NCBI GenBank assembly: GCA_964626205.1 | Contig: CAZVED010000004.1 | Coordinates: forward strand, 2,163 to 66,162 | From: an uncultured Gammaproteobacteria bacterium | Lineage (GTDB): Bacteria > Patescibacteriota > Patescibacteriia > SG8-24 | Direction of reading: 5' to 3' | DNA length: 64,000 nt | Part shown: one piece after another, positions 4,605 to 64,000 of the stretch | Position numbering within the stretch: the stretch's first letter is position 1 | Layout of the letters: the number at the start of each line of letters is the position of its first letter | Notes under the pieces: generated by a model | Seen by the model: the letters and a program-made list of their open reading frames with translations, nothing else | Told to the model about the DNA's origin: nothing | Database searches by the model: none | Made by a program: the position numbers and the translations under genes

Positions 4605-4717
4605 ATTTGGCCAAATTTGAGCTTTTATTTTTGTTTCCAATGCTTTCTTTGCTTCTGTCCTCACTGAGCTTATCACAAACTAAGCTTATTTTCAAGCCCT
4701 ATTGGTTTGTACAAAGC

Positions 4718-39586: not shown

Positions 39587-39589
39587 GGA

Positions 39590-39855
39590 ATACTCGTGGA
39601 TAAGCAGTCGATAACAGGTCTATAAAGACCGGAAAACTTCGATACTTTCCCACAGTATCTCCACCGAAGAAATTCTCTCGTTCGGTTCCATCCCTAGGTT
39701 ATCCATCCGTCCCCACACGTTCCTCACAGGTCGTCCCATCGTTTTCTCAGCGCAACGCAGGTATTTTTGACGACTTATCCCTGTTATCCCCGCTATTACT
39801 GTTATTACCAAGAAGTTTTCACTTAAAAAATCAATTCAATAACAGGACTAAGAAA
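39590..39855. other. Candidate oriC: DnaA-box cluster plus an AT-rich unwinding element in the dnaA-dnaN spacer
   Basis: The boxes are CGTGGATAAG (39595-39604, 8/9 to TTATCCACA), TTTCCCACAG, GGTTATCCATCC, CTTATCCCTG and TGTTATCCCCG. An AT-rich tract TTTCACTTAAAAAATCAATTCAATAACAGG lies before dnaN. More box-like sites lie in the rpmH-dnaA spacer (38105-38125). Confidence 0.6.
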
Positions 39856-40998
39856 ATGAAATTCTCCTGCACACAAGAGAACCTCCATCAGGGACTTTCC
39901 GTCGTGAGTCATATCGCGAGCAGGAACGTAAACCTTCCGATTCTTGGAAACGTTCTCATCAAATGTGATGGTACTGTCTTGAAGCTGTTGTCCACGAATT
40001 TGGAAATCGCCATCAGCTGCACGGTTCGGGGAAAGATCGAAGAGGTTGGAGAGTTTACTGTCCCGTCGAAACTCTTCTCAGATTACGTCAGTCTGCTTTC
40101 TAAGGACCGGATCGACATAGAACAGTCCGGAAGCGTTGTGGAGGTCTCCTGCGGGTCTTACAAGACGAAATTGAACGGCGTTCATGCCAGTGAGTTCCCT
40201 CTCATCCCAGCTGTCGATAAACAACAGGAATTCATCGTTAAGGTAAGTGATCTTCGTCGCGCTATCAGTCAGGTTCTTTTTGCGGTCGCTCCGAATGAGT
40301 CCCGCCCAGAGATCAGTGGTGTCCTGTTTGCTTTTGAGCAATCAAAAAACAACCTTTCTTTGACGTTGGCGGCCACAGATAGCTACCGTCTGGCGGAAAA
40401 AACAGTTCCTGCAAAAGGGGTAATCAAGGACCAGGCGGTTTCTGTCATCGTTCCGGCACGAACTGTAGCGGAAATCATCCGCATTCTTACGGTCTTTAAG
40501 GATGATTCGGAGTCACCGGAAGACGTCAATATTTCTTTGAGTGACAACCAGATCTTGTTCTCCTATGGGTCAGTCGAGCTTATTTCAAGAACGATTGAGG
40601 GTAAGTATCCGGATTATCGACAACTTATCCCCGACACCTATCAGACAGAGGTTCGGCTTTCCAAAGACGAGCTTCAACGGGCCATTAAGGCAACAAGTCT
40701 GTTTTCCAGGACAGGGCTTAACGATATTACCGTTGCCTTCAAGCCCGATAGCGAGATCCATGTCCGGGCGACGAACTCACAAACCGGGGAACATTCGGTA
40801 GACCTAGAAGGAGCGATTATCGGTAAGGAAAACGTCATCACAGTGAACTACAAATACCTTTTGGATGGGGTCAATAATATCGATACAGATCTCGTTGCCA
40901 TGAAGATGATCGATGGTATGAGTCCGTGTCTCATCCAGTCAGGGTCGGATGAGACAAAACCAGACTATCTCTACATCGTCATGCCGATTCGTCAGTAA
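39856..40998 (+). CDS. dnaN: DNA polymerase III beta sliding clamp
   Basis: The protein is 380 aa with a three-domain clamp and begins MKFSCTQENLHQGLSVVSHIASRNVNLPILGNVLI. Confidence 0.95.
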   Translation: MKFSCTQENLHQGLSVVSHIASRNVNLPILGNVLIKCDGTVLKLLSTNLEIAISCTVRGKIEEVGEFTVPSKLFSDYVSLLSKDRIDIEQSGSVVEVSCGSYKTKLNGVHASEFPLIPAVDKQQEFIVKVSDLRRAISQVLFAVAPNESRPEISGVLFAFEQSKNNLSLTLAATDSYRLAEKTVPAKGVIKDQAVSVIVPARTVAEIIRILTVFKDDSESPEDVNISLSDNQILFSYGSVELISRTIEGKYPDYRQLIPDTYQTEVRLSKDELQRAIKATSLFSRTGLNDITVAFKPDSEIHVRATNSQTGEHSVDLEGAIIGKENVITVNYKYLLDGVNNIDTDLVAMKMIDGMSPCLIQSGSDETKPDYLYIVMPIRQ

Positions 40999-50439: not shown

Positions 50440-51400
50440 GAGGTGGAGCATAGCACGGTATCCCCCATTTGGAAAGACGTGATAAAGGTATTTATGTGTC
50501 GTACAATTTTATATTATTTATATTGTTGTGTAGCAAATAGACTTGATACAACGTTTTAAAATTTATGCATGAAAAAATAAAGAGACGGCCAAGACGAAAA
50601 GCAATTCGGAAGCGTAGAATTTCGAGTGCCATTAAATGTTTCACATGGAACAACAGACGTAAGTTCTTTATACAAGTTTCACGTGAAACACATTTTCAAT
50701 TTTTGGAAATGATCAGGCTGTTTCATGTGAAACATTTTTACAACCGACAAAGCACGGTTTCAGTGTTTCATGTGAAACACCAATACAGACTCCTGACAAC
50801 GCAGATTGATCAGTGTGCGAACTGAAGAAAAACGAGAAGACCTTAGTGAAAATGCTGCCGCTACAAAGGAGCGTTGGAAAATATGTTCAGTAGGCATAAC
50901 AGTCTTGTGTATTAAAGCAAAAACGAGGCAATGACCTCTGGTTTTCAAGGCAGGTATTTTTATTGCAGTGTTGAATAGTCATATGTTTGAAAAAATGACC
51001 GGATGTTTCACGTGAAACATCAAAAGATTTGCTTGGTTAGTTGGCTAGGTGACAAAAGAAACAAAGAAATAAAAATTTTACGACACAAAATGAACGTTTT
51101 TTGATGCAAAAACAGATCAGTTTGTTTGGTGTGGACAAAGATGCCAGTCCAAGCTCAAAAATAAGTCTTTCTGTGGACAGTTTAGGGGATAAGCTACCCA
51201 ATTTGTGAATAGTTTTTTTGTACAACTTATGATTTGTTGAAAAAGTTCTTAACATGCCCATTTTTACTCTATATTTAGCCAAAAAACAGCACATTGGATG
51301 ATTGACTTTGAGCTTATTTTCTGCTAAAATAGATATGTACTAGAGAAATTGCGGCGAAAAGCCGTGTACAAAATCTAAAAATACCAAGACAAGGTACCCA
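50440..51400. promoter_or_regulatory. ~960-bp AT-rich non-coding island with a 16-bp palindrome array, upstream of the surface-protein gene cluster
   Basis: GC drops sharply relative to the ~60% background. TGTTTCATGTGAAACA occurs at 50719-50734 and 50765-50780. GTTTCACGTGAAAC occurs at 50676-50689 and 51005-51020. A degenerate copy TGTTTCACATGGAACA lies at ~50637-50652. Only short spurious ORFs are present. Confidence 0.55.
51302..51330 (+). promoter_or_regulatory. Sigma70-like promoter TTGACT-N17-TAAAAT for the first surface-protein gene
   Basis: It is a near-consensus -35 and -10 with 17-bp spacing, ~65 nt upstream of ATG 51400. Confidence 0.5.
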
Positions 51401-52197
51401 TGCACCTACCGAGTCGCGGAAAACATATTGTGGCAATCATGCTGTTTTCGTTCAGCATGATTGTTGTTTTTTCCGGTGCGGTTAAGGCGGAACGGATGAG
51501 TTCCAGCAACTATGTGATTCAAGCAGATGCCATGGGAATCGCTGGTGGTTCCAGCACCTCAACGAATTACTGGGTTATAGACACCCTCGGTGAGGTGGCA
51601 ACTGGGGAAAACCTCCAGAGCACGAACTACCGAGGCTGTGCAGGATTCGAGTGTTTCCAGGAAGAGCCGTACATCTCCTTCGTGGTTCGTCAGGGTACCT
51701 CCGCACCGGGGTCATCGGGGGCCGGTGTGAACCTTGGGGTGCTCTCGCCATCAACGGTCAAGACGTCGGATGGGGCAACGGTGAACTCAATTTTCCTGAC
51801 AGTCGAGAGCAACGCTGCCCACGGGGTCATTGCAAGCGTTCGAAGCCAGAACGCCGGCTTGCAGCGCACCTCAAATGCTCTTGCGAACATTCCATCATCG
51901 ACGGTGGCCCTTGTTCCGGGGGTCGAAGGGTACGGAGTCTGCGTTTTTTCTGCCGCAGAGGACGGCTTGAGCCCCACGGTCTTTGTGGAGAATGCCCCAT
52001 ATGACGGGACCTGCACCACAACGACGGGCCACGATGTTGGGATCGTTGACGAGACGCCACGAGCGATTCTTTCCTCCGCCGGGCAGCTCAAGGGAGGGGA
52101 ATCGGAGATTCTCGTCAAGGCAAGCGCGGGTATTTGGACCGAGGCAGGGGACGACTATGTCGATACGCTCACATTCATTTTGTCGGCGACATACTAG
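51400..52197 (+). CDS. Secreted protein, paralog A (WxL-like C-terminal motif DYVDTLTFILSATY)
   Basis: A signal peptide (MLFSFSMIVVFSGAVKA) is followed by Ser/Thr/Gly-rich beta-type sequence. The C-terminal motif is shared with the next paralog. Confidence 0.5.
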   Translation: MHLPSRGKHIVAIMLFSFSMIVVFSGAVKAERMSSSNYVIQADAMGIAGGSSTSTNYWVIDTLGEVATGENLQSTNYRGCAGFECFQEEPYISFVVRQGTSAPGSSGAGVNLGVLSPSTVKTSDGATVNSIFLTVESNAAHGVIASVRSQNAGLQRTSNALANIPSSTVALVPGVEGYGVCVFSAAEDGLSPTVFVENAPYDGTCTTTTGHDVGIVDETPRAILSSAGQLKGGESEILVKASAGIWTEAGDDYVDTLTFILSATY

Positions 52198-52843
52198 CCT
52201 CCACACCCTGCTTCCGGATGTCGTCCGGGAGTGCGGTGCGGAGGGTAGCGTTAAGCCACTCACGCAAAAATGTCTATGCGTCAGCGAACAAAAACAAAAC
52301 TGTTTTCGTTGCTGGTGAAGATGACAACGGTCGCGATGGTCGCAGGCATGGTCACGAGGATCATGCCGATCGGCCGCTAAACGACCGCTTCGGACAGTGT
52401 CGCGCGTTTTGCCCTCCAACGTCCGGAATTGCCGTCAAAAATCAACGGCAAAAACGGAATCCGCCCCTGGTGCAACAGGGAGGGCTGGATGAGGGCAGTA
52501 CTCGCGATGGTGATCCGAAGACGTCGTTCGGTGTCGGTTCCGCATCCTGTCGTCGTGAGAACGATGACCGCAGGAATGCGGAGGTGACTCCGTGTATATC
52601 GAACAGCCCAAGGTCGACTGATGTCGCGTGTCCGGGCGACTCAGTATCACGTCAGCGTATTCTTCTGCCGCGTCTCGCCTGTCCAAAGGGCGGAAACGGC
52701 ATGGCGTTGACGACGGATATTTATTCTTTACTGCTGCTTCCAAGCACGCTCGCGCATTTGCCAATAACGTCATCCTCAACTCGAGAAGGGATGACGTGAC
52801 GGTGCGCAGGCCTTAGCAAGGAAGCGAGCCTACAAGTACGACA

Positions 52844-53965
52844 ATGAAAAACAAAATATTCTCGTTCGTTGCAAAGCTGACCTCTGTGGCGATGATCCTG
52901 TCATCCCTGCTGCAGGTCGCTCCGGTCCGTGCGGCGACCGTGACCTCGCTCAGCGATGTTATGACGCGCCTCGCGGCATCCGTTGCCTCTAATCACGAAA
53001 TCAAGTTCGTGATACCCGGAGGTATCGCCGCAGGAGAAACTGTTACGTTGACCTTTGGATCCGGATTCGACATCTCCTCAATCGTCGAGGACGATGTGGA
53101 TTTCGCGGTCGGCAATTCTAACAATTGCTCCACCGCAACATTCACGGAAGAAGCTACTGCGGCGGTGGCTGACGCTGCCGACTGGGGTGTCGCCGTTTCC
53201 AGCCAGGTGCTGACCATCACGAGCGGTACTGACACGCTTGTCGCGGACCGTTGTGTCCGCATCCGCGTCGGAACCAATGCTGTCAGCTCCGGCACAGGCG
53301 CCAATCAGGCGGTCAACCCGACGGCTGGCGCAAACACGATTGTGGTCGGCGGCACCATGGGTGATGTCGGCACGATCGCTCTCTCCATCGTCGACTCGGA
53401 TCAGGTCACGGTTACCGCGACCGTCGATCCGTCGCTGACGTTCGATCTCGACACCGCGACCTCGGATACGAACTCTGCGAGCCCGTATTCCGTGGCGCTC
53501 GGCACCCTTACGCCGGGTACACCGAAGTCGTCCGACCAGTCAGCCATCAACAGCATCTACGTCGACCTGACAACGAACGCCACCTCCGGCGCGGTTGTCA
53601 CGGTCCGTAATGCCAATGGTGCAGATGGTCTCGTGAGTACATCCGTACCCACAGACACCATCGACAGTGCGGACGGTACGATGTCCAGCGCGACAGCCAA
53701 CTACGGCATCTGCATTGAGTCGGTCACACAGACGGCCGGTGCGACGCTGACGGAGGTCGCCCCGTATGACGGCACCTGCGTCGCTGGTGCTACGGACAAC
53801 GTCGTCGGTGGCCTGCTCGCCACCGCGACGAACATCCTGACCGCCGCGAGTCCGATTAACGTCGGTCGCGCGGAGATCCTCGTGAACGCCAACGCAACGG
53901 CGCTCACGGTGGCTCACAACGACTATACCGACACCCTGACCTTCATCGCGACGGGTACGTTCTAA
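52844..53965 (+). CDS. Secreted protein, paralog B (C-terminal AEILVNANATALTVAHNDYTDTLTFIATGTF)
   Basis: It has a signal peptide (LTSVAMILSSLLQVAPVRA). Its C-terminal 30 aa align with paralog A (SEILVKASAGIWTEAGDDYVDTLTFILSATY). Confidence 0.5.
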   Translation: MKNKIFSFVAKLTSVAMILSSLLQVAPVRAATVTSLSDVMTRLAASVASNHEIKFVIPGGIAAGETVTLTFGSGFDISSIVEDDVDFAVGNSNNCSTATFTEEATAAVADAADWGVAVSSQVLTITSGTDTLVADRCVRIRVGTNAVSSGTGANQAVNPTAGANTIVVGGTMGDVGTIALSIVDSDQVTVTATVDPSLTFDLDTATSDTNSASPYSVALGTLTPGTPKSSDQSAINSIYVDLTTNATSGAVVTVRNANGADGLVSTSVPTDTIDSADGTMSSATANYGICIESVTQTAGATLTEVAPYDGTCVAGATDNVVGGLLATATNILTAASPINVGRAEILVNANATALTVAHNDYTDTLTFIATGTF

Positions 53966-54051
53966 GTGGTCGTTGCTTGCTTGGTCCCCCTCGACTTCGA
54001 GGGGGGTCATCCTGCGGCGATTACGGACAATCATCACTAACCTCAACTCCT

Positions 54052-55068
54052 ATGCGAAAATCCAGACATTTGCTCGGAACGGTCACGCTCACGCTTGCGC
54101 TCGCGGCGGCACTTCTGCCGGTTTCCGCGAGCGCGCTCACCATCTCTCCGCCATCGTTCGATTACAACCTGAACCCCGGAGACACGGTCCTCGATGTCGT
54201 GAAGGTCTATAACGAGAATGAAACGACAGAGATCGTGTATCCCGTCCTCGTTGATTTCGTTGCTGACGAAGGCGAGGCTGGCGCTCCACGTTTCGTTCCT
54301 GCAGGGACCGATGCTGCGGGAGCCGGTATTTCCGACTGGATTTCCATGGACATGTCCGGGCTCGTCGTTGCTCCAGACGAGCGCATCAACTTCCCGTTTT
54401 CCATCAACGTCCCGGCAGACGCGTCGCCGGGTGGTCACTACGGCGCCATCCTGCTTTCTACGGAACCGCCATCCGATGTCCCGGGAGGCGTCGGTGTCGC
54501 GTCGCAGATCGCCGCGCTCATTCTCGTGAACGTTTCCGGAGACGTTCGAGAAGTCGGCGCTATCGCGGAATTCGGATTCGTGGATCCGCAGGTCTGGTAC
54601 GACCACCTGCCTATCGACTTTTTCCTCCGTTTCGAGAACTCGGGCAACACGCACCTGCGCCCATCCGGCAACCTATTTGTCGAGGACTGGACCGGTCGCC
54701 AGGTCGCATCCATCAAAGTGAACGAAAGCTTCAACGGTGTTTTACCGATGAGCATCCGTCGATTCCAGTTCGGTTGGCAGAAGCGCGGTTTCGACACGTC
54801 AGACTCCGGGCTCGAACGCGAATGGAAGAATTTCGCGATCGGTAAACACACGGCGACCCTCGTCTTGAACTACGGCAGAGCGACCGGACAGGTCGTGAGT
54901 GAGCAGCGCGTGTTCTATGTCTGGCCGTGGAGGCTCATGATCGTGAGCGGCATCGTCCTGCTTATCCTCGCGGTGCTGTGGGTCATTCGTCGAAAGATGT
55001 TCGCGAAGGGCGTTATTGCGCGGTATGAGGAGGCCAAGCGTAAAGAAGCAGCCTTGAGGAAGGGATAG
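54052..55068 (+). CDS. Cell-surface protein with an N-terminal signal peptide and a C-terminal TM anchor plus basic tail (DUF916/CscA-like architecture)
   Basis: The protein begins MRKSRHLLGTVTLTLALAAALLPVSASA. It then has ~280 aa of beta-rich domain, and ends ...WPWRLMIVSGIVLLILAVLWVIRRKMFAKGVIARYEEAKRKEAALRKG. Confidence 0.5.
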   Translation: MRKSRHLLGTVTLTLALAAALLPVSASALTISPPSFDYNLNPGDTVLDVVKVYNENETTEIVYPVLVDFVADEGEAGAPRFVPAGTDAAGAGISDWISMDMSGLVVAPDERINFPFSINVPADASPGGHYGAILLSTEPPSDVPGGVGVASQIAALILVNVSGDVREVGAIAEFGFVDPQVWYDHLPIDFFLRFENSGNTHLRPSGNLFVEDWTGRQVASIKVNESFNGVLPMSIRRFQFGWQKRGFDTSDSGLEREWKNFAIGKHTATLVLNYGRATGQVVSEQRVFYVWPWRLMIVSGIVLLILAVLWVIRRKMFAKGVIARYEEAKRKEAALRKG

Positions 55069-55116: not shown

Positions 55117-58100
55117 ATGAACCAGGAGACGCGACAAACGACCTTGCTGCAGCGACTGAGCCTGACTCTCGGGTTCGGGCTGCTTGTCGTTGTCGCGTCA
55201 TCCACGCTCGTCTTCTTCGCTTCTGCGACCGCGGTATCCGAACGCTCGGATACGCTCTCCAACCAGACGTCGGGTCAGGCATCTTCCCACACCATCCGCT
55301 TCACGCTGTCGGGTGGCAATGCGTTTGCCGCCGCCGAACAGATCGTCGTTGATTTCGGCGAGGATGATGCCAGGTTTGCCGTGGCTGGCATGACCTTTGC
55401 CGCAGCCGACATCGAGGTTGATGACGGGACATCGCGCACAACATACTCCGTGACGAACGGTCCGGCTTCATGTGTGGGTTCTTTGGGGGCGAACGACATT
55501 GCCGTCGGCATCGACGATGCGACAGGTGTCATTACCATGGAAGCGTGCCCATCCTTCGTTGCAAGCGCGGCCGGCGCTCTTGTGACGATCCGTATCGGCG
55601 CGGTCGCTGGCGGTACGGACAGGATTACGAACCCGACCGCCGGAAGCCACCTTATCGATATCGTCGATGCGGCAGGAGACTGCCAGACCTTCGGTGACGT
55701 CTGCGCCATCGGCATCGCCATCCTTGATGCGGGGATGGTCACCATCAGCGCGGTCGTCCCTCCGGTGTGCGGCGACGGCAAGGTAGAAGGCGACGAAATG
55801 TGCGATGACGGAAACCTTGTCGGTGGCGACGGGTGTTCAAGCACGTGTCGTAATGAGAATGATGGCGGAACCTCCGTCGACATCGCGCCACCGGTTATTT
55901 CCAACGTACGCGTGGAAGATGTCACGACGACTTCGGTGACGGTCGCGTGGGATGCCAATGAACCTGCATCCGGACGTGTTGAGTACGGTGCAGATCAGAC
56001 GTATGGAAGCGTCGCCGGTCAGTCGGCATTCCTGTACGCGCACACCATCGGTCTCTCCGGCCTCCAGCCGAACACGACGTATCACTTCCGTGTCTGTTCG
56101 ACGGATCCGACGCAGAACGAAGCGTGCTCCGGCGACGCCACGTTCATGACCGCATCCGTGCAGGACGCGCTCCCGCCAGTCATCACGAACATCCAGGTGA
56201 CGAGCGTCACCGCGACCAGCGCGACAATCGTCTGGACCACGGACGAAGCCGCGACGTCCTTCGTAGACTACGACACCGACGGCGCTCCGTATGCTTCCGT
56301 CGCGACGACCGCCGGTCTTGCGACCGCGCACTCCGTCGCGCTGTCCGGCCTCCAGCCGAACACGACGCATCACTTCCGCGTACGTTCCGGTGACGCATCT
56401 TCAAACGAGGCGTTTAGTACGGACCTTACCTTCATGACCGCATCCGTGCAGGACACGCTCCCGCCAGTCATCACGAACATCCAGGTGACGAATGTCACTG
56501 CGACCAGTGCGACGATCGTCTGGACCACGGACGAAGCCGCGACGTCCTTCGTAGACTACGATACCGACGGCGCTCCGTACGCTGCCGTCGCGCCAACGTC
56601 GGGTCTTGCGACCGCGCACTCCGTTACGCTGTCCGGCCTCCAACCGAATACGACGTACCATTTCCGCGTGCGTTCTGTGGATGCATATGGAAACGAGTCG
56701 TTCGGTACGAATATGACGCTTGCGACATGGGACGCGCTCCCGCCAGTCATCACGAACATCCAGGTGACGAGCGTCACCGCGACCAGCGCGACAATCGTCT
56801 GGACCACGGACGAAGCCGCGACGTCCTTCGTAGACTACGACACCGACGGCGCTCCGTATGCTTCCGTCGCGACGACCGCCGGTCTTGCGACCGCGCACTC
56901 CGTCGCGCTGTCCGGCCTCCAGCCGAACACGATGCATCACTTCCGCGTGCGTTCTGTAGACGGGGGTGCGAACGAGGCGGTTTCGGAGAACGCGACATTC
57001 AGGACCTTGGTACCAGCAGCACCGGTTGTGAGCGATGTTCAGGTGACGGATGTGACGGACTCATCCGCCCGCATCACGTGGGTCACGGATACGACATCGA
57101 CCACTGTCGTGGAGTATGGACTTTCGACAACATATGGCGCTGTCGTCTCGAACCCGACGTTGTCCACGAACCATCTTGCGCTCATCACCGGGCTTACGAA
57201 CGGCACGATGTATCACTTCCGCGTATCATCGACCGATGCCTATGACCAAACGACGATTGTCGATGGAGGGACATTCACGACCACCGCAGACGTGACCGCA
57301 CCTCCGAATGTTACTGGTTTCATCGCCGAGCCAGGAGATGCTTTGGTGCTGCTTTCATGGACGAACCCGGCGGCCGCGGACTTCGCTGGCGTCCGCATCC
57401 TCCGAAAGACGACGGGATTCTCTTCCGGTCCGACGGACGGTGACATGGTGTACTCCGGCGTTGCGCAATCGTTCGCGGACATGGGTGTGTCGAACGACAT
57501 CGTGTACTACTACACCATCTTCGCTTTCGACGAGGTGCCGAACTTCTCGACTGGCGCGGTCGTGTCTGCGACCCCGGTCGGACCAGAGGACATGACGCCG
57601 CCGGGACCGGTGACCGGTTTCATGGCCATCGCTGGAGACGCCAGCGTGGAACTTTCGTGGACGAACCCGATGGACGCCGATCTTCGCGGTGTTCGTATCG
57701 TCCGCAAAGAAGACGGGTGCCCTGTCGACGAGACCGACGGCACGACCGTGTACGCTGGCCTCGCGACGTCGCGCATGGACATCGGGCTCATGAACGATAC
57801 GACGTATTGCTATGCGGCATACGCATACGATGCTGTTCCGAACTTCTCGTTCGGTACGACTGCGACCGCGACGCCTGTCGCAATAGAGGATGTGACGCCG
57901 CCTGGGCCGACCACTGACTTCGTCGCCACCGCCGGAGACGCCATCGTTCTCCTTACATGGACGAACCCGACGGATACGGATTGGCGAGGGACGCGCATCG
58001 TTCGCAAGGTCGGTTCCGACCCGACGTCGCCGACAGACGGCACTGTCTTGTATGAGGCTGCCGCGAGCTTCTTCTGGGATGACATCAATCTGACGAATGG

Positions 58101-60396
58101 CGTGACGTATCACTACGCGGCATACGCATACGACGAAGCCGGAAATTTCTCGGCAGGCGCGTTCGCCAACGCGACACCGCTTGAGGGGCTTCCACTTCCG
58201 GTTCTCGCCTGCTCCGACTCCGATGGTGGCCTCTCGTTCGAGGTCGCAGGAACGGTGACGACGCCATCCGGAGCGTTCATCGACGCATGCGTGGACGAGA
58301 CGATGCTTCGCGAATACTTCTGTGCCGGAACATCCGTACAGGAACAAGCGTACGTTTGCGATGCTGGCGCACGTTGCTTGGCAGGACGCTGCGTCCCTGA
58401 GGACTACGTGCCCATGCCGGATACATGCGGTAACAGTTTCTGTGATGGTGTCGAGACGAACCTTTCATGTCCGTCGGATTGTCCGGTGGCAGCAGGTATT
58501 CCGTTGCAGCATCTTGGGGCGACAAACGTGCCTCCCGAAGAGCGTTTGCAACTGGATTTGGTGCGGTTCTATGCGACCGAACGACAGATTGAGCTCGTCT
58601 TCGACGAGAATAACCGTATCGCCATCTATCCGGCGACGACCGTCCGTGTGTATCTGCCGGACGCAGCGATCCGGAAGCCGATTCGCGAGGCATATGCGAC
58701 CATCGAAAGTTCTTCGTATGCGATGCGTGAGACGCGGAGCTATGAGACGAGCATCGTCATGCCGAAGGAGACCGCAGACCACCCGCTCACGTTCAGCGTG
58801 CTGTATCAGGACGGCACACACGAGATCACGGAGTACTCGTTCGTCGTCAATCCGTTCAGCGTCATCTATGAGGTGGTCGGTGGCAAGCCGGTTCCGGTCG
58901 CGGATGCTCGTGTGGCCGTCTTCCGACAGGACGAGCGTGGCAGGTTCGGCCTGTGGGATGCCGATCGCTTCGGGCAACAGAATCCGATCGTCACGAACGT
59001 TTCCGGCTCGTACGGCTTCATTGCCGAACCCGGCACGTACCGCCTGCAGGTGGAAGCTCCCGGATTCCGTCCGTTCCAGACGCTGCCGTTCCGCGTCCGC
59101 GAGAACCTTGTCGGTCGTGATGTCGAGATGGTCCGGTTGCCACCGCCATTCATCGAGAATCCCGTGGAGAACATCGTCAACCGTGCGGCATTCTTGCTCG
59201 ATGCGACACGGCAAGAAGTGATGGAGTTCATCGATAACGAGTTCGTCGAGGAGGGGACGGTAACCGTGGCACCGGTCGCCCTCGCTGTCGCCGCGACGAA
59301 TGCCGCGGCCGTGGTGCCTCACCTGCCATTCCTGTACTCGCTCCTTGCGCACCCGTTCCGCATCATCGCAATGCGGCGCAGGAAGAAGTGGGGGGTCGTT
59401 TTCGACGCCATCACGCAGATGCCGGTGGACCTCGCGATTGTCCGTTTGCTGGACGCGGAGACTGGACGCATCATGCGTACCGCCGTGACGGATCAGCAAG
59501 GTCGGTACGCATTCATCGTGAAGCCAGGGTCGTATCGCTTGACGGCGACCAAAGTCGGCATGACGTTCCCATCCGTCTTCCTGAAGGAAAAGAAAGAATC
59601 TGCGCGTTTCATCGACCTGTACCACGGAGAGCCTGTGGCTGTCAGCGCGGAAGACGTCATCACTGCGAATATCCCGCTTGATCCGATTGGTAGCGCAAAG
59701 ACGCCGACGCGCATCGTATGGGAGGGCGTTGGCCGGAGGTTCCAGCACGGCATCGGCATTCTCGCCATTGTCACGATGGTCGGCGTCATGGTCATCGCGC
59801 CGAGCATGTTCACGGCGGCGCTCTTGGCCGGGAATGTGATCTTCTATGCGGTCTTCCGGCGTGTCACATCGGTACGGCACCCGAAGAGCTGGGGTATCGT
59901 CTACGACGAGGAAACGGGCAAGCCCCTTACGAACGTCGTCGCCCGCGTGTTCGACACGGCATACGACAAGCTGCTGGAGACACAAGTGACAGACATCAAA
60001 GGTCGGTACGCGTTCCTTGTCGGCAATAACGTGTATTACGTGACGTTCGAGAAGCCAGGATATCGGAAACGGCAGAGTGACAAGGTTGACCTGCTCGCCG
60101 GCGACAAGGCGAAGGATCAGGTCGTCGCGGTCGATGTTACGCTCTCGCAGGCGAAGGGCGATGGCGAGACGAAAAAGCCGGAGGCTCCACCACCCCTTCT
60201 CGTGCCACCGCCTACGGCGACGCCTCCTCCGATGTCACCGCTCGCCCCGCATGCGCGGGAGATCGACGAAGAGCAGCTCGCGGAATCGGCGGTCGGGTCC
60301 GTCGCTCAGATGCTCGAGCATGAGGAGCCTGATGATGGGCAGAAAAAGGAATGGATAGAGCGACATCGACCGGAGGATGAAGAAGGTAAACAGTGA
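55117..60396 (+). CDS. Giant (1759 aa) membrane-anchored multidomain surface protein with FN3-like repeats (4 + 4), a Cys-rich module, three CarboxypepD_reg-like domains interleaved with TM segments, and a Pro-rich tail
   Basis: The N-terminal TM/signal is GFGLLVVVASSTLVFFASA. Repeats of type PPVITNIQVTSVTATSATIVWTTDEAATSFVDYDTDGAPYASV...LSGLQPNTTHHFRVRS (purple-acid-phosphatase-N-like FN3) occur 4 times. A second FN3-like type with SWTNP...GVRIxRK occurs 4 times. Further on are GRYAFIVKPGSYRL and GSYGFIAEPGTYRL motifs, a TM stretch ILAIVTMVGVMVIAPSMFTAALLAGNVIFYAVF, and a C-terminal PPPLLVPPPTATPPPMSP. Confidence 0.75.
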   Translation: MNQETRQTTLLQRLSLTLGFGLLVVVASSTLVFFASATAVSERSDTLSNQTSGQASSHTIRFTLSGGNAFAAAEQIVVDFGEDDARFAVAGMTFAAADIEVDDGTSRTTYSVTNGPASCVGSLGANDIAVGIDDATGVITMEACPSFVASAAGALVTIRIGAVAGGTDRITNPTAGSHLIDIVDAAGDCQTFGDVCAIGIAILDAGMVTISAVVPPVCGDGKVEGDEMCDDGNLVGGDGCSSTCRNENDGGTSVDIAPPVISNVRVEDVTTTSVTVAWDANEPASGRVEYGADQTYGSVAGQSAFLYAHTIGLSGLQPNTTYHFRVCSTDPTQNEACSGDATFMTASVQDALPPVITNIQVTSVTATSATIVWTTDEAATSFVDYDTDGAPYASVATTAGLATAHSVALSGLQPNTTHHFRVRSGDASSNEAFSTDLTFMTASVQDTLPPVITNIQVTNVTATSATIVWTTDEAATSFVDYDTDGAPYAAVAPTSGLATAHSVTLSGLQPNTTYHFRVRSVDAYGNESFGTNMTLATWDALPPVITNIQVTSVTATSATIVWTTDEAATSFVDYDTDGAPYASVATTAGLATAHSVALSGLQPNTMHHFRVRSVDGGANEAVSENATFRTLVPAAPVVSDVQVTDVTDSSARITWVTDTTSTTVVEYGLSTTYGAVVSNPTLSTNHLALITGLTNGTMYHFRVSSTDAYDQTTIVDGGTFTTTADVTAPPNVTGFIAEPGDALVLLSWTNPAAADFAGVRILRKTTGFSSGPTDGDMVYSGVAQSFADMGVSNDIVYYYTIFAFDEVPNFSTGAVVSATPVGPEDMTPPGPVTGFMAIAGDASVELSWTNPMDADLRGVRIVRKEDGCPVDETDGTTVYAGLATSRMDIGLMNDTTYCYAAYAYDAVPNFSFGTTATATPVAIEDVTPPGPTTDFVATAGDAIVLLTWTNPTDTDWRGTRIVRKVGSDPTSPTDGTVLYEAAASFFWDDINLTNGVTYHYAAYAYDEAGNFSAGAFANATPLEGLPLPVLACSDSDGGLSFEVAGTVTTPSGAFIDACVDETMLREYFCAGTSVQEQAYVCDAGARCLAGRCVPEDYVPMPDTCGNSFCDGVETNLSCPSDCPVAAGIPLQHLGATNVPPEERLQLDLVRFYATERQIELVFDENNRIAIYPATTVRVYLPDAAIRKPIREAYATIESSSYAMRETRSYETSIVMPKETADHPLTFSVLYQDGTHEITEYSFVVNPFSVIYEVVGGKPVPVADARVAVFRQDERGRFGLWDADRFGQQNPIVTNVSGSYGFIAEPGTYRLQVEAPGFRPFQTLPFRVRENLVGRDVEMVRLPPPFIENPVENIVNRAAFLLDATRQEVMEFIDNEFVEEGTVTVAPVALAVAATNAAAVVPHLPFLYSLLAHPFRIIAMRRRKKWGVVFDAITQMPVDLAIVRLLDAETGRIMRTAVTDQQGRYAFIVKPGSYRLTATKVGMTFPSVFLKEKKESARFIDLYHGEPVAVSAEDVITANIPLDPIGSAKTPTRIVWEGVGRRFQHGIGILAIVTMVGVMVIAPSMFTAALLAGNVIFYAVFRRVTSVRHPKSWGIVYDEETGKPLTNVVARVFDTAYDKLLETQVTDIKGRYAFLVGNNVYYVTFEKPGYRKRQSDKVDLLAGDKAKDQVVAVDVTLSQAKGDGETKKPEAPPPLLVPPPTATPPPMSPLAPHAREIDEEQLAESAVGSVAQMLEHEEPDDGQKKEWIERHRPEDEEGKQ
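56139..56990 (+). repeat. In-frame tandem DNA repeat inside the giant gene: three units of ~279-288 bp, with ~195-bp stretches perfectly identical between units 1 and 3, plus a diverged unit 0 at ~55850-56138
   Basis: GCTCCCGCCAGTCATCACGAACATCCAGGTGACG recurs at 56169, 56457 and 56736. The antisense track ORFs 55837..56373 and 56401..56940 share identical peptides, which confirms the DNA identity. Confidence 0.75.
57290..58190 (+). repeat. Second in-frame tandem repeat (3-4 units of 300 bp, diverged) encoding SWTNP-type FN3-like domains
   Basis: TGGACGAACCCG recurs at 57358, 57658 and 57958. Confidence 0.5.
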
Positions 60397-60491: not shown

Positions 60492-63400
60492 ATGTCAGGT
60501 TTGCAGTACAACAAGGTTCTTCCGCTTTTGCGGCGAATGTTCACGCTTGGCGTGCATGCTTTGGGCATGCTCGCTGTGCTTTTGGTGGCATCCGTCGCTT
60601 TGGCATCGGGTCCGGACCAGAACCGCATTCTCAACTACCAGATCCGCCTCACGGATGCCAATGGCATCGCGGTTCCGGACGGAACGACCGACATCAAGCT
60701 CACTTTCTACACTGCCGCATCCGGAGGGACGCAGCTCTACACGGCCTGTTCCGCCGACGGTTCACCGACCGGTACGCCGACAGCAGTCGAGGCGACGTTC
60801 ACTTCAGGCGTCGCGACGGTGCTTATTGGCGATACGGGCATCACGTGCGCTTCCGGATCCGCCGTGGCGATTCCGGCGACATTGTTCACCAACACCGCGA
60901 TGTATCTCGGCGTCACCGTCGAGGCGGATGCGGAAATGACCCCACGCAAGCGCATTGTCGCGGCCGGATACGCATTGAATGCCGACCGTCTCGATGACCT
61001 TGAGACATCGGCAGTCGGTGGCTCTGGTGCATTCGTGCCGATCACGGACGGCAGCGGCAACCTGACGTTGACCGAGGACCTTGCAGTGGACGGCACCACG
61101 TTCCTTGTCGACAGCGCGAACAACCGCATCGGTATCGGCACGATCACACCGGATGCCGTGCTCGATATCGAGGGTGCGGAAGACACAGAACGCATTCGCC
61201 TCACGGACGCGACGAACGTCGATTCCGTCGGCATTTATACCGGCTCCGGTACGCCGAACGGCTCGCTCACTGCGCAGGCCGGCTCCATCTTCCTCGATCA
61301 GACCGGTGGCGTGTACGTAAACACGAACGATGGTACCGCATGGTCGTTGTTGTCCGCAGGCGGCAGCATGGCTATCGGTGGCACGATTACGAGCGGCACG
61401 GTCGGCTCGCTGCTGTTCGTCGGTTCCGGTCCGTCACTCGCACAAGATAACGCGAACGTGTTCTGGGATGATGCGAGTAACCGACTCGGCATCGGCACCA
61501 ACGCGCCGTTGCGTACGCTCGACGTCGCGGGCTCGCAGCGCCTCCGTGGTACTGGCAGCACAGTGCTTACCGGCACTATCGATCCCGCTGCATCCACGAC
61601 AGTGACTGGCGTAGGTACTGCGTTTACCACGGAGATCGCGCTTGGCGACCGTATCGTCGTCGGTGGCGAAACTCGCACTGTGGTCGCGATCGCTTCCGAC
61701 ACGTCGCTCACGGTCGATCAGGCATTCTCGGACAATGCGAACGATACGTCGCCGGATGTGCTGTCCGCGATTGCGACGTTCCTGAAGAGCGACGGAACTC
61801 TGGGTCCGTCCGTGAACGACATCGGTGAACTCGTCATCGGACACCTTACCTCCGACCCGCTCGGTGGAAAGGCGCACATGTACTACAACACCACGACGAA
61901 CAAGTTCCGTTGTTACGAGAACACCACGTGGAAAGACTGCGTCGTCGATACGAGTGGTGACATTACGGGTACCGGTTCCAATGGTGCGGTGACTTTCTGG
62001 AGCGGATCATTGACGCTCTCCGCAGACTCCGCAAACTTCTTCTGGGATGACACGAACAACCGACTCGGCATCGGCGACGCGACACCCGCAGCGAGCCTCA
62101 CCGTCGGTTCCGGCGATTTGTTCCAGGTGGCCGGTGCTTCGGGCAACATCACGACGGCCGGTACGCTCACGGTGAACGGCACTGGCGCCTCGCTCATCGG
62201 CGGCAACCTCACGGTGAACGGTAACACCACGCTCGGTAACGCGGTGGGAGACACCGTAGCGTTCACGGGACGCCTGAACTCGCCGACGCATGGTGCCAGC
62301 AAGGGGTTGCTGCTGCCGACAAACGCTGGTGCGCCGAGTCCGGTGACCGGCACGACTGAGGGTGATATCGTGTGGGATACTACGAACGACCTTCTCTACG
62401 TGTACGACGGCTCCGCCTTCACGAGCTTCTCTGCAGGCGGTGTGAGCATTGGTGGTGATGTCTCTGGCGGTACGGTTGGCTCGGTACTCTTCGTGGGCAC
62501 GAGCGGACTGCTCACGCAGGACAACGCATCGTTCTTCTGGGATGACACCAACAATCGCCTCGGCATTGGCGACGCGACGCCGGCCGCCACGCTCACTGTC
62601 GGTTCCGGCGACCTGTTCCAGGTGGCGGGGGCTTCGGGCAACATTACGACCGCCGGCACACTTACGGTGAACGGCACCGGTGCTTCGCTCATCGGCGGCA
62701 ACCTCACGGTGAACGGCACGACCGCGCTCGGAAATGCCTCCGGAGACACCGTCACTGTCGCAGGCCGCTTGGTGACCTCGAACCATGCCGCAAATCAAGG
62801 CTTCAAGATTCCGACTTACGGTGCAGGGGCGCCTGGTGCCGTGACTGGCACGGTTGAAGGAGACATCGTATGGGATACGACCAACGACGTGCTCTATATT
62901 TATGACGGTGCCGATTTCACGAGCTTCTCTGCAGGCGGCGGCGTGAGCATTGGTGGCGCGGTGGCGAGCGGTACGGTCGGATCCATCCTGTTCGTCGGCG
63001 CAGGCGGCAATCTCGACCAGGACAACCCCGCATTGTACTGGGACTACACGAACGACCGCCTCGGTCTGGGTGACGCGACTCCGAGCTATACGCTTGATAT
63101 TAACGGCACATTCCGCGCCACCGGCGCCGCGCTCTTCGATGGCACGGTCGCGCTCGGCAATGCGGCAGGGGACACGGTCACTGTCGCGGGCCGTCTCGAC
63201 CTTGGAGCACACGCAGCGAATATCGGTTTGAACATTCCGACGAGCGCGGGCGTGCCGAGCGGCGTCACTGGAACCGCCGAGGGCGACATCGTCTGGGATG
63301 CGACGAACAACACGCTGTATCTGTATGACGGTGCATCCTTCGCGCAGATCAACGGTGCAATCGGTATTGGCAACACGGTCTCGAGCGGTACGAGCGGCTC

Positions 63401-64000
63401 CATTCTGTACGTGAACGGGTCCGGCCAGCTTGCGCAGGAGAATGCGAATCTGTTCTGGGACGACACCAACAACCGACTCGGCCTCAATGATACGACCCCG
63501 AGCTACACGCTCGACATCAACGGCACGTTCCGCACCACAGGCGCTGCGCTCTTCGATGGCACGGTCGCGCTCGGCAACGCGGCGGGGGACACGGTCACTG
63601 TCGCCGGCCGCCTCGATCTCGGCGTGCATGCTGCGAACATCGGTTTGAACATTCCGACGAACGCGGGCGTGCCGAGCGGCGTCACCGGAACCGCGGAAGG
63701 TGACATCGTCTGGGATTCAACCAACGACTCCTTGTACATCTACGATGGTGCGGCGTTCACGGCGTTCACTGCCGGCGGTGATATCGCCATTGGTGGCGAC
63801 ATCTCGGGTGGCACGGTCGGTTCCATACTCTTCGTGGACACGAGCGGAAATCTCGGTCAGGACAATGCCAGCTTCTTCTGGGACGACACCAACAACCGCC
63901 TCGGCATTCTTGACGCCACGCCGGACGCAACGCTCGATGTCGCCGGTTCCACGCACCTCGGTAGCTCTACGTCGCATCGCGTGACCATCACCGGCGAGTT
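60492..64000 (+). CDS. Partial tail-fibre-like repeat protein (>1169 aa; N-terminal TM anchor; 3' end outside the window)
   Basis: Manual translation from ATG 60492 gives MSGLQYNKVLPLLRRMFTLGVHALGMLAVLLVASVALASG... It then shows recurring FFWDDTNNRLGIGDATPAATLTVGSGDLFQVAGASGNITTAGTLTVNGTGASLIGGNLTVNG...GDIVWDTTNDxLYxYDG units, with DNA periodicity of ~0.43-0.5 kb from 62040. The antisense 540-aa track ORF 62007..63629 is an artefact. Confidence 0.6.
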   Translation, partial: MSGLQYNKVLPLLRRMFTLGVHALGMLAVLLVASVALASGPDQNRILNYQIRLTDANGIAVPDGTTDIKLTFYTAASGGTQLYTACSADGSPTGTPTAVEATFTSGVATVLIGDTGITCASGSAVAIPATLFTNTAMYLGVTVEADAEMTPRKRIVAAGYALNADRLDDLETSAVGGSGAFVPITDGSGNLTLTEDLAVDGTTFLVDSANNRIGIGTITPDAVLDIEGAEDTERIRLTDATNVDSVGIYTGSGTPNGSLTAQAGSIFLDQTGGVYVNTNDGTAWSLLSAGGSMAIGGTITSGTVGSLLFVGSGPSLAQDNANVFWDDASNRLGIGTNAPLRTLDVAGSQRLRGTGSTVLTGTIDPAASTTVTGVGTAFTTEIALGDRIVVGGETRTVVAIASDTSLTVDQAFSDNANDTSPDVLSAIATFLKSDGTLGPSVNDIGELVIGHLTSDPLGGKAHMYYNTTTNKFRCYENTTWKDCVVDTSGDITGTGSNGAVTFWSGSLTLSADSANFFWDDTNNRLGIGDATPAASLTVGSGDLFQVAGASGNITTAGTLTVNGTGASLIGGNLTVNGNTTLGNAVGDTVAFTGRLNSPTHGASKGLLLPTNAGAPSPVTGTTEGDIVWDTTNDLLYVYDGSAFTSFSAGGVSIGGDVSGGTVGSVLFVGTSGLLTQDNASFFWDDTNNRLGIGDATPAATLTVGSGDLFQVAGASGNITTAGTLTVNGTGASLIGGNLTVNGTTALGNASGDTVTVAGRLVTSNHAANQGFKIPTYGAGAPGAVTGTVEGDIVWDTTNDVLYIYDGADFTSFSAGGGVSIGGAVASGTVGSILFVGAGGNLDQDNPALYWDYTNDRLGLGDATPSYTLDINGTFRATGAALFDGTVALGNAAGDTVTVAGRLDLGAHAANIGLNIPTSAGVPSGVTGTAEGDIVWDATNNTLYLYDGASFAQINGAIGIGNTVSSGTSGSILYVNGSGQLAQENANLFWDDTNNRLGLNDTTPSYTLDINGTFRTTGAALFDGTVALGNAAGDTVTVAGRLDLGVHAANIGLNIPTNAGVPSGVTGTAEGDIVWDSTNDSLYIYDGAAFTAFTAGGDIAIGGDISGGTVGSILFVDTSGNLGQDNASFFWDDTNNRLGILDATPDATLDVAGSTHLGSSTSHRVTITGE

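What the first reader, a model, noticed from the sequence alone, without database searches (positions are those of the whole stretch)
55850..58190. Near-identical in-frame tandem repeats inside the 1759-aa surface protein
Three consecutive ~280-290-bp units encoding FN3-like domains share ~195-bp stretches of perfect nucleotide identity, and are followed by a second 300-bp repeat family. Such identity implies recent expansion or ongoing gene conversion. It also predicts slipped-strand or recombinational copy-number variation that would change the length of the exposed stalk. This is a classic contingency-locus feature. It also makes the region collapse-prone in short-read assemblies.
Basis: seen in the sequence. 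Interest (0 to 1): 0.55.

Follow-up and report, generated by a model that had tools for sequence, protein, structure and literature searches.

The report
Gene conversion between FN3 domain repeats
Three neighbouring fibronectin-type-III domains of a giant surface protein from an uncultured Patescibacterium have had the first two-thirds of their coding sequence copied onto one another by gene conversion; the same thing has happened independently in related species, and it is a known kind of repeat evolution, not shown to be a length-switching locus.

Summary
The repeats are real, but the description is only partly right. The 1759-aa gene (55117..60396, +) carries five FN3 domains and then three older 300-bp FN3-like units. 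Only domains 2 and 4 share a perfect tract: 203 bp, 56163-56365 = 56730-56932. Domain 3, between them, is about 91% identical over that stretch, with exact runs of at most 47 bp. In all three, identity falls to 61-68% in the last ~85 bp (strand F, FG loop, strand G).

A recent whole-unit duplication would not leave this mosaic. Fifteen of 18 homologues also have five FN3 domains, and 15 of 18 have three FN3-like units. Three syntenic orthologues from other assemblies have their own exact tracts (183, 128+74 and 98 nt) between domains 2 and 3, in the same part of the domain. Two sister orthologues show 38 "concerted" versus 2 "orthologous" sites in the head, and 1 versus 7 in the tail.

The best explanation is recurrent, partial-domain intragenic gene conversion within a conserved stalk. 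"Recent expansion" and "classic contingency locus" are not supported. Copy-number variation is mechanistically possible, as an in-frame change of ±567 bp, but no close relatives or reads were available to test it. It is a new member of a known kind and of modest interest.

The parts
55117..60396 (+). Gene for the 1759-aa surface protein. Order of modules: signal peptide, N-terminal module, Cys-rich DUF4215 repeat, 5 FN3 domains, 3 FN3-like units, Cys-rich region, C-terminal anchor of CarboxypepD_reg domains and transmembrane segments, Pro-rich/acidic tail.
   Evidence: ORF; translation; Pfam. It is a singleton 90% cluster on a 101,677-bp NCBI contig. Full-length homologues at 44-49% identity are mostly labelled Patescibacteria or Uhrbacteria.
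55117..55227 (+). Signal peptide. Hydrophobic core at aa 16-34, with a probable signal-peptidase-I site ASA|TA.
   Evidence: Kyte-Doolittle scan and the sequence itself. The cleavage site is inferred.
55228..55761 (+). N-terminal module (aa 38-215), homologous to the N-terminal half of the neighbouring 373-aa protein. It is the likely distal 'head' of the molecule.
   Evidence: BLASTP 30% identity over 193 aa, E=2e-10. No Pfam match. Its role is inferred.
55888..56163 (+). FN3 domain 1. It is diverged: 56-57% nucleotide head identity to domains 2-4. Its tail carries the two position-1 cysteines.
56173..56451 (+). Its head is identical to that of domain 4. Its tail 'RVRSGDASSNEAF' matches the position-2 consensus of the orthologues.
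56461..56736 (+). Head 91% identical at the nucleotide level to domains 2 and 4. Tail 62-65% by the hmmalign-based table, or 68% to domain 2 in the codon alignment. This unit is 279 bp rather than 288 bp.
56740..57018 (+). Head identical to domain 2. It has its own tail, and its linker 'LVPAAPVV' matches the position-4/5 junction of the orthologues ('PAxPVISN').
57019..57297 (+). FN3 domain 5, diverged. It is orthologous to the last FN3 of the homologues.
56163..56365 (+). Copy A of the 203-bp perfect tract (the conversion tract). It covers the linker, strands A-E and the E-F loop of domain 2.
   Evidence: Exact-match scan; secondary structure of the model.
56730..56932 (+). Copy B of the 203-bp perfect tract, covering the same part of domain 4. 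Near-identity continues for about 25 nt beyond it with 2 mismatches, then drops to about 60%.
57301..58200 (+). Second repeat family: three 300-bp FN3-like units (57301-57600, 57601-57900, 57901-58200). Identity is 71-72% at the nucleotide level and 31-55% at the protein level. The family is ancient and stable, with exactly three copies in 15 of 18 homologues.
   Evidence: weak DUF4959 hit
58834..60100 (+). C-terminal anchor module. CarboxypepD_reg domains alternate with hydrophobic segments (aa 1382-1400 and 1546-1564), which are followed by basic clusters (RRRKKWG, RRVTSVRHPKSWG). This is the most conserved part of the family.
   Evidence: Pfam CarboxypepD_reg E=1.8e-19, 3 stretches; hydropathy; invariant columns.
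51400..55068 (+). Upstream genes conserved in synteny with the giant gene: a 265-aa protein (51400..52197), a 36-aa membrane peptide (52270..52380), a 373-aa protein (52844..53965), and a 363-aa protein with a signal peptide and a C-terminal TM segment plus a weak WxLIP_PGBD-like match (53977..55068).
   Evidence: Synteny in L001, L002 and L003; paralogy; weak Pfam hit E=0.13; small ORF.

Best explanation
The near-identity comes from intragenic gene conversion, that is non-reciprocal homologous recombination between misaligned repeat units. It acts on an old and otherwise stable array of five FN3 domains in the extracellular stalk of a membrane-anchored surface protein of a Patescibacterium (probably Uhrbacteria-like).

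Each conversion copies the linker plus beta-strands A-E, about 200 bp, from one domain onto another. It stops before or within strand F. Each recipient therefore keeps its own F strand, FG loop, G strand and linker.

In this genome an older event (or events) homogenised domains 2, 3 and 4, which are now about 91% identical in that stretch. A very recent event then made the heads of domains 2 and 4 identical (203/203 nt), skipping domain 3.

What is shown: the mosaic pattern, its recurrence in other lineages, and the conserved domain count.

What is inferred:
- that the mechanism is RecA-type strand invasion between sister copies, resolved without crossover;
- that crossover products (in-frame changes of ±279, 288 or 567 bp) arise but are mostly removed by selection;
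- that the tract boundary is held in place by selection on position-specific tails, by sequence divergence blocking heteroduplex extension, or by both.
For: 1. Mosaic units. Domain 2 versus domain 4 has 0 mismatches in 203 nt, then 32 in the last 83 nt. Domain 2 versus domain 3 has 18 in 203, then 24 in about 74. P is about 3e-19 for a uniform spread of mismatches.

2. Identity includes every synonymous site in the tract, so purifying selection alone cannot explain it.

3. Domain number is conserved. There are 5 FN3 domains in 15 of 18 homologues and 3 FN3-like units in 15 of 18. Orthologues with no exact repeat longer than 24 nt also have five domains.

4. Tails keep positional orthology across proteins, and heads much less so. 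Mean tail identity for the same position is 64/62/57/48/61%, against about 45% off the diagonal. For heads the figures are 46-53% against 40-49%.

5. Independent recurrence. Syntenic orthologues L001, L002 and L003 come from different assemblies and sources and are 45-48% identical to this protein. They carry exact tracts of 183, 128+74 and 98 nt between domains 2 and 3, all within the head.

6. Textbook concerted evolution. Between sister orthologues P0004 and P0005 the head has 38 sites where both domains share a lineage-specific base, against 2 'orthologous' sites. The tail has 1 against 7. Fisher p = 3.7e-6.

7. Contrast case. The one expanded orthologue, with 9 FN3 domains (L008/P0002), shows equal head and tail similarity between its extra units (82/82 and 81/85%), as expected for whole-unit duplication.
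Against: - No reads were available, so the perfect identity itself cannot be verified. A short-read assembler could have homogenised two copies that are only 95-99% identical.
- Positional orthology of the tails of domains 3 and 4 of this protein is weak in the identity matrix. For domain 4 it rests mainly on the linker motif.
- The head/tail boundary used for the family analysis was defined from this window's tract.
- P0004 and P0005 are sisters, so the number of fully independent lineages showing long tracts is three or four, not more.
- The recombination machinery was not examined.
Confidence: 0.8

Rival explanations
1. Periscope-type or contingency-type length variation. The identical tracts exist because they are used: frequent recombination between them adds or removes FN3 domains in frame, so that cells in the population display stalks of different length.
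For: - The 203-bp perfect direct repeats lie 567 bp apart, and all periods are multiples of 3 (279, 288, 567). Crossovers would therefore give intact proteins with 3 or 7 FN3 domains.
- The family contains members with 4, 5 and 9 FN3 domains.
- The architecture fits a stalk carrying a distal N-terminal module.
- High DNA identity between domain repeats is the hallmark of Periscope Proteins (PMC8201768).
Against: - Only three units are similar, and only over two-thirds of their length.
- Domain number is five in 15 of 18 homologues across deep divergence, including those that carry conversion tracts.
- No close strain or read data exist to show variation.
- No short-period repeats are present.

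This rival concerns function and is compatible with conversion as the mechanism.
Confidence: 0.15
2. Recent tandem duplication (array expansion). Units 2-4 arose by recent unequal crossing-over from one unit and have not yet diverged.
For: - The units are tandem and in register, with high head identity.
- Expansion by whole units does occur in the family, as in the 9-FN3 orthologue L008.
Against: - The tails of the three units are only 61-68% identical at the nucleotide level and 50-58% at the protein level. That is as diverged as ancient paralogous domains in orthologues.
- The five-domain count and the position-specific tail and linker motifs are shared with orthologues that lack any homogenisation.
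- Unit lengths differ (288, 279, 288 bp).
Confidence: 0.05
3. Assembly artefact. The metagenome assembler collapsed or mis-threaded similar repeats, creating identity that does not exist in the genome, or hiding extra copies.
For: - The sequence is a metagenome-type contig with no second copy in any collection.
- The tract (203 bp) exceeds usual k-mers and 150-nt reads.
- In a de Bruijn graph, the segment running from the tail of domain 2 through domain 3 back to the tract forms a loop. That loop could be traversed more than once without the assembler noticing.
- Several orthologue contigs end at the FN3 array, for example L009 at query residue 252 and L019 at residue 236.
Against: - The same pattern appears in four assemblies from different projects and pipelines, each with lineage-specific sequence.
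- Domain 3 is an intermediate at 91%, not collapsed.
- The reading frame is intact through the array.
- Collapse needs copies that are already about 95% or more alike, which would itself require concerted evolution.
Confidence: 0.07
4. Targeted diversification by a diversity-generating retroelement, with one unit acting as template repeat and another as variable repeat.
For: Patescibacteria are known to be rich in such elements (own knowledge). The units are about 200-bp near-identical repeats in a surface protein.
Against: - Domains 2 and 4 are identical, with no variable positions.
- Differences from domain 3 are spread over all base types (C>T 12, G>A 6, T>C 5, A>G 4 and others) and are not adenine-specific.
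- Both copies are coding FN3 domains, not a C-terminal lectin-type variable region.
- No reverse transcriptase was seen among the roughly 40 window ORFs scanned against Pfam.
Confidence: 0.01

Closest known systems
Periscope Proteins (Rib, SasG/Aap, Sgo_0707, Esp, CdrA; Whelan et al. 2021, PMC8201768)
   Same: It is a bacterial surface protein with a tandem array of folded beta-sandwich domains between a distal N-terminal module and a C-terminal anchor. Neighbouring domains have unusually high DNA and protein identity (83-85% at the protein level here). That breaks the usual rule of under 50% identity between adjacent domains quoted in that paper.
   Different: - Only 3 of 8 stalk domains are similar, and only over about 70% of each unit.
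- Domain number is conserved (five) across the family rather than varying between relatives.
- The anchor is a set of the protein's own transmembrane segments, not LPXTG.
- Strain-level length variation, the defining property, could not be tested.
Concerted evolution of intragenic repeats by gene conversion (e.g. spidroin repeat homogenisation, PMC3933166; WD-repeat genes of Podospora, PMC2873952; abstracts only)
   Same: Repeat units inside one gene are more alike within a genome than to their orthologous counterparts in related genomes. Identity extends to synonymous sites and shows mosaic tract boundaries.
   Different: The tract is a sub-domain segment (strands A-E) with a recurrent 3' boundary. 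Only 2-3 of 5 units are involved, and unit number stays fixed. The organism is an uncultured Patescibacterium.
Fibrillar adhesins / stalk-domain surface proteins (PMC8286594, PMC9210967; abstracts only)
   Same: It is a long multidomain extracellular protein whose FN3-type domains form a stalk that projects another module.
   Different: No adhesive domain has been identified. The N-terminal module has no Pfam match. The C-terminal multi-TM/CarboxypepD_reg anchor is not a feature I know from described fibrillar adhesins (own knowledge; not checked in those papers).
Contingency loci (simple-sequence-repeat phase variation; own knowledge, Moxon et al. 1994)
   Same: Repetitive DNA in a surface-protein gene that could in principle generate heritable, reversible variants.
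   Different: The repeat units are 279-288 bp, changes would be in frame (size variation, not on/off switching), and no short-period tract is present.
WxL-type cell-surface gene clusters of Firmicutes (WxL protein plus WxL-interacting DUF916/DUF3324 protein; own knowledge)
   Same: The gene sits in a conserved cluster of secreted proteins. One of them has a signal peptide, a weak WxLIP_PGBD-like region and a C-terminal TM anchor.
   Different: The Pfam match is far below threshold (12.7 bits against a cut-off of 27.3). No WxL domain was detected. The resemblance is only a lead.

Membership tests
Fibronectin type III domain (Pfam PF00041 / PF16656-type) | Significant match to the family profile for each unit | tested here: met
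   fn3 E=2.7e-37 (127 bits, cut-off 25) with 5 stretches; Pur_ac_phosph_N E=4.7e-46 with 5 stretches.
Fibronectin type III domain (Pfam PF00041 / PF16656-type) | Seven-strand beta-sandwich fold superposable on solved FN3 domains | tested here: met
   Model pLDDT 90.1, with strands at residues 8-14, 20-39, 46-62, 69-77, 83-85 and 89-92. Foldseek against the PDB gives probability 1.00 and TM 0.82-0.84 to NCAM2 FN3 (2xyc, 2doc) and irisin (4lsd).
Concerted evolution by gene conversion | Paralogous units share lineage-specific substitutions, so they are more alike within a genome than orthologous units are between genomes | tested here: met
   P0004 versus P0005, domains 2 and 3: in the head, 38 concerted against 2 orthologous sites. 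Within-genome identity is 96-98%, against 76-79% between genomes.
Concerted evolution by gene conversion | Mosaic structure with abrupt tract boundaries, with identity extending to synonymous sites | tested here: met
   0 of 203 mismatches, then 32 of 83. P is about 3e-19.
Concerted evolution by gene conversion | Unit number unchanged by the event (non-reciprocal transfer, not duplication) | tested here: met
   Five FN3 domains here and in 14 further homologues (15 of 18 in all), with or without tracts.
Periscope Proteins | Tandem array of highly similar folded domains with high DNA identity across whole units | tested here: inconclusive
   Three of five FN3 units are 85-92% identical overall. 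However, identity is confined to the first ~205 bp of each unit, and the tails are 61-68% identical.
Periscope Proteins | Number of repeats varies between closely related strains | not testable with these tools
   The protein is a singleton cluster. No encoding contig is on record. No close relative was found in genome or metagenome collections. At the deeper family level the count is conserved, five in 15 of 18, which argues against free variation.
Periscope Proteins | Surface-anchored, with an N-terminal functional domain projected by the repeat region | tested here: inconclusive
   The order of signal peptide, N-terminal module, repeats and C-terminal TM segments fits. The function of the N-terminal module and the topology are inferred.
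Contingency locus (simple-sequence-repeat phase variation) | Hypermutable short-unit repeat tract whose length changes switch expression or reading frame | tested here: not met
   TRF finds only periods of 279/288 bp in the gene. All periods are multiples of 3.
Diversity-generating retroelement target | Template/variable repeat pair differing at adenines of the template, with a nearby reverse transcriptase | tested here: not met
   The mismatch spectrum is not adenine-specific. No reverse transcriptase was found among the ORFs scanned.

The most novel reading that the evidence does not exclude
The partial-domain conversion may be more than a by-product. It recurs in several Patescibacteria lineages and always spares strand F, the FG loop and strand G. 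The family may therefore be under selection to keep the A-E faces of the middle FN3 domains identical, for example for multivalent binding of a repeated ligand on a host cell. The retained distinct tails would preserve register or limit inter-domain misfolding. Alternatively, the identical tracts may serve as a periscope-like length switch (±189 aa) in an episymbiotic bacterium. Either would be the first such system described in the candidate phyla radiation.
Probability: 0.12. Interest if true: 0.55.

Novelty: new member of a known kind. Interest (0 to 1): 0.3.

Why it matters
- **For annotation and assembly.** The FN3 array of this conserved Patescibacteria surface-protein family contains tracts longer than short reads. 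Domain counts in short-read MAGs may therefore be minimal estimates, and contigs may break there.
- **For evolution.** It is a clean, replicated example of sub-domain gene conversion in a bacterial multidomain protein. Heads evolve in concert while tails evolve by descent. This matters when building domain phylogenies or inferring 'recent duplications' from repeat identity.
- **For biology.** It points to a conserved five-gene surface cluster whose giant member has adjacent domains of 83-85% identity. That feature is otherwise associated with variable-length Periscope Proteins. The family is a reasonable candidate for testing whether ultra-small episymbionts modulate surface-protein length.

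None of this overturns current understanding.

Tried and rejected
- **Strain-level variation.** An exact look-up of the protein showed a singleton cluster, and no encoding contig is on record. A degenerate DNA pattern for the conserved head peptide (WTTDEAATSFVDYDTDG) found 0 hits in genome contigs and 0 in metagenome contigs. A protein-seeded metagenome scan returned only unrelated hits to the Cys-rich repeat. Copy-number variation within the species could therefore not be tested.
- **DGR hypothesis.** Rejected on the mismatch spectrum.
- **Purifying selection as the cause of identity.** Rejected because synonymous sites are identical.
- **Whole-unit duplication.** Rejected on the divergent tails and the conserved domain count.
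- **Positional orthology of every tail in this protein.** Clear for domains 1, 2 and 5, supported only by the linker for domain 4, and ambiguous for domain 3. I do not claim more than that.
- **Relaxed Pfam scans of the neighbouring genes.** They gave only sub-threshold hits (WxLIP_PGBD E=0.13), so the WxL-cluster analogy remains a lead.
- **Literature searches.** I found no description of this Patescibacteria family, and no bacterial FN3 case of partial-domain conversion. That is absence from the held library only.
Full report
**1. The observation**

Tandem Repeats Finder reports one array at 56037-57026 with period 288/279, about 3.2 copies and 79-83% matches. The repeat finder gives three in-register 277-nt copies at 56163, 56451 and 56730, at 85% and 92% identity to the first. 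It also gives a second family of three units spaced exactly 300 bp from about 57313, at 71-72% identity. Everything lies in frame in one ORF, 55117..60396 (+), 1759 aa.

An exact-match scan shows that the long perfect tract joins only the first and third units: 203 bp, 56163-56365 = 56730-56932, spacing 567 bp. The middle unit shares exact runs of at most 47 and 36 bp with either neighbour. The 203-nt repeat is the longest exact direct repeat in the whole 64-kb window; the next longest is 47 nt.

It is wrong that all three units share perfect stretches of about 195 bp.

**2. What the units are**

- Pfam finds five FN3-type domains: fn3 E=2.7e-37 and Pur_ac_phosph_N E=4.7e-46, each with five stretches.
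- A unit-specific HMM places them at aa 258-349, 353-445, 449-540, 542-634 and 635-727.
- An AlphaFold model of domain 2 has pLDDT 90 and superposes on solved FN3 domains with TM about 0.8.
Domains 1 and 5 are diverged, with 47-57% nucleotide head identity to the others.
- The 300-bp family is a second FN3-like type (weak DUF4959 hit), with 31-55% protein identity between units.

The full protein has these modules, in order:

- a signal peptide with an ASA|TA site;
- an N-terminal module with no Pfam match;
- a DUF4215 Cys-rich repeat;
- the 5 + 3 domain array, followed by a Cys-rich region;
- a C-terminal module in which CarboxypepD_reg domains alternate with hydrophobic segments followed by basic clusters;
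- a Pro-rich acidic tail.

That architecture fits a membrane-anchored protein whose FN3 array is an extracellular stalk. This reading is inferred.

**3. Mosaic structure**

A codon-aware comparison and sliding windows give the following.

| Pair | Head (tract of ~203 nt) | Tail (last ~75-85 nt) |
|---|---|---|
| Domain 2 vs 4 | 0 mismatches in 203 (2 mismatches in the codon just before the tract) | 32 mismatches in 83 (61% identity) |
| Domain 2 vs 3 | 18 mismatches in 203 (91% identity) | 24 in about 74 (68% identity) |
| Domain 3 vs 4 | similar to 2 vs 3 | similar to 2 vs 3 |

If the 34 mismatches between domains 2 and 4 were spread uniformly, leaving a 203-site block free of them would have P about 3e-19.

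On the model, the tract covers the linker, strands A-E and the E-F loop. The divergent part is strand F, the FG loop and strand G. Identity includes every synonymous position, so selection on the protein cannot be the cause. The differences from domain 3 involve all base types and are not adenine-specific, which excludes a diversity-generating retroelement.

**4. Comparison with relatives**

The protein is a singleton at 90% clustering, on a 101,677-bp NCBI contig. Full-length homologues at 44-49% identity exist, labelled Patescibacteria where named. A genome scan returns the family from Uhrbacteria, Magasanikbacteria, Falkowbacteria and unnamed Patescibacteria MAGs.

Three orthologues were fetched with their flanks: L001 (P0004), L002 (P0005) and L003 (P0010). 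They share the same gene order:

- RmuC on the opposite strand (not seen in L002, whose contig ends before it);
- a protein of about 265 aa;
- a membrane peptide of about 35 aa (not called in L001);
- a protein of about 335-405 aa;
- a protein of about 335 aa with a signal peptide and TM segment;
- the giant gene.

They are therefore true orthologues.

Domain counts are conserved. There are five FN3 domains in 15 of 18 homologues, four in two and nine in one. There are three FN3-like units in 15 of 18. Orthologues with no internal exact repeat longer than 24 nt also have five FN3 domains. Five is thus the ancestral, stable number, and the window's array is not a recent expansion.

**5. Heads evolve in concert, tails by descent**

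Across 15 five-domain proteins, tails (HMM columns 64-89) are most similar between the same positions of different proteins: 64, 62, 57, 48 and 61% on the diagonal, against about 45% off it. Heads show little positional signal, 46-53% against 40-49%.

Within proteins, head identity between domains 2 and 3 is raised in several lineages: 92% here, 97% in P0004, 98% in P0005, 81% in P0010 and 76% in P0003. Tails stay at 42-77%.

At the DNA level:

- L001 has a 183-nt exact tract between domains 2 and 3.
- L002 has 128 + 74 nt.
- L003 has 98 nt.
- All lie within the head.
- Twelve other orthologues have at most 10-50 nt.

The sister pair P0004/P0005 gives the classical test. In the head, 38 sites carry a base shared by domains 2 and 3 of one genome but different in the other genome, against 2 sites with the orthologous pattern. 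In the tail the counts are 1 and 7. Fisher p = 3.7e-6. Conversion has therefore continued after these lineages split.

The nine-domain orthologue (L008) is a useful contrast. Its extra units are equally similar in head and tail (82/82 and 81/85%), as whole-unit duplication predicts.

**6. Mechanism**

The best-supported account is non-reciprocal homologous recombination between misaligned FN3 units, recurring in this family and limited to the first two-thirds of the unit. In this genome an older homogenisation of domains 2-4 was followed by a very recent transfer between domains 2 and 4.

Three steps are inferred:

- a RecA-type pathway acting between sister chromosomes;
- removal of crossover products by selection;
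- the reason for the shared 3' boundary, which could be position-specific function of the F-G segment and linker, a divergence barrier to heteroduplex extension, or both.

The position-specific markers that survive are:

- the two cysteines in the tail of domain 1;
- 'RVRSGDAxxNEAF' in domain 2;
- the 'PAxPV' linker after domain 4.

Positional orthology of the domain 3 tail in this protein is not clear.

**7.

The 203-bp direct repeats are a plausible substrate for in-frame deletion or duplication of 567 bp (189 aa, two domains). Adjacent domains are 83-85% identical. Such identity is unusual and is associated with variable-length Periscope Proteins (PMC8201768).

Against this, the conserved count of five argues that length changes are usually not retained. 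Only three units are involved. No strain or read data could be found. 'Contingency locus' in the usual sense of simple-sequence phase variation does not apply.

The warning about assembly is fair and cuts both ways. The tract exceeds short-read length, and the segment between the two copies forms a graph loop that could hide extra copies. Perfect identity could also be a consensus of copies that are 95% or more alike. Four independent assemblies with lineage-specific tracts make a pure artefact unlikely.

**8. Verdict**

This is a real feature, correctly spotted but imprecisely described. It is best explained as recurrent partial-domain gene conversion within a conserved stalk. It is a new example of a known process in a poorly studied phylum. 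Interest is modest (0.3). It would be higher if population data showed length variants or if the conserved tract boundary proved to be selected.

Noticed in passing
window 3-4679 (-), running off the left end; TRF array 424-841: A second giant repetitive gene: an open frame of more than 1559 aa made of roughly 60-aa repeats resembling NHL or beta-propeller blades ('NRVLVFDVASITDGEAAVNVLGQADFTSNG...'). TRF gives period 180, 2.3 copies and 83% matches. Exact repeats reach 47 nt (472/652). The ORF listing does not report it because it runs off the window.
   Followed up: partly
window 52270-52380 (+): A conserved 36-aa ORF for a membrane peptide (MSMRQRTKTKLFSLLVKMTTVAMVAGMVTRIMPIGR). It sits between the 265-aa and 373-aa genes and matches the called 33-aa genes at the same position in L002 and L003. 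The mechanically listed ORF 52134..52799 (221 aa, TTG start) that overlaps it is probably not a gene.
   Followed up: partly
window 51400-55068 (+); L001, L002, L003: The genes upstream of the giant gene form a conserved, modular surface-protein cluster. The 373-aa protein has an N-terminal half homologous to the giant protein's N-terminal module (E=2e-10). Its C-terminal half is homologous to the 265-aa protein (E=2e-26), and both end in 'DY.DTLTFI..(A/G)T(Y/F)'. The 363-aa protein has a signal peptide, a sub-threshold WxLIP_PGBD-like region and a C-terminal TM segment. RmuC lies immediately upstream on the opposite strand in the window and in L001 and L003.
   Followed up: partly
loci L024-L083: The C-terminal anchor module (CarboxypepD_reg domains alternating with TM segments, motifs 'RRRKKWG' and 'NKLLETQVTD.RGRYAFLVG.NVYYVT') occurs in many Uhrbacteria, Magasanikbacteria and Falkowbacteria proteins. 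These carry 0-9 copies of this FN3 type and otherwise different ectodomains. Some genomes have two or three such genes in tandem (L072, L076, L082).
   Followed up: no
loci L009, L019, L012, L020: Several contigs carrying orthologues begin or end inside or at the edge of the FN3 array, with matches starting at query residues 252, 236, 692 and 379. This is consistent with short-read assemblies breaking at these repeats.
   Followed up: no
window 37940-40998 (+): dnaA and dnaN lie side by side, so the window probably includes or adjoins the chromosomal replication origin. The giant gene lies about 15 kb downstream on the same strand.
   Followed up: no
window 62007-63629 (-): A 540-aa ORF without Pfam matches that contains internal direct repeats: 32-nt exact matches at 62190/62685 and 63129/63546, and a 24-nt match at 63245/63662.
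   Followed up: no
L001 11771-17655, L002 10485-15014: In two orthologous loci the giant FN3 gene is followed by another very large gene. In L001 it has a 2949-aa product with a Peptidase_S74 domain (intramolecular chaperone type). The window has no counterpart at that position.
   Followed up: no
L008 10001-16717 (P0002): One orthologue has nine FN3 domains. The extra units are similar over both head and tail (about 82/82% and 81/85%), so whole-unit duplication has also occurred in this family. The record is labelled 'Candidatus Binatia', and for P0002 'Eisenbacteria'. This probably reflects mis-binning, given the Patescibacteria-type gene.
   Followed up: partly
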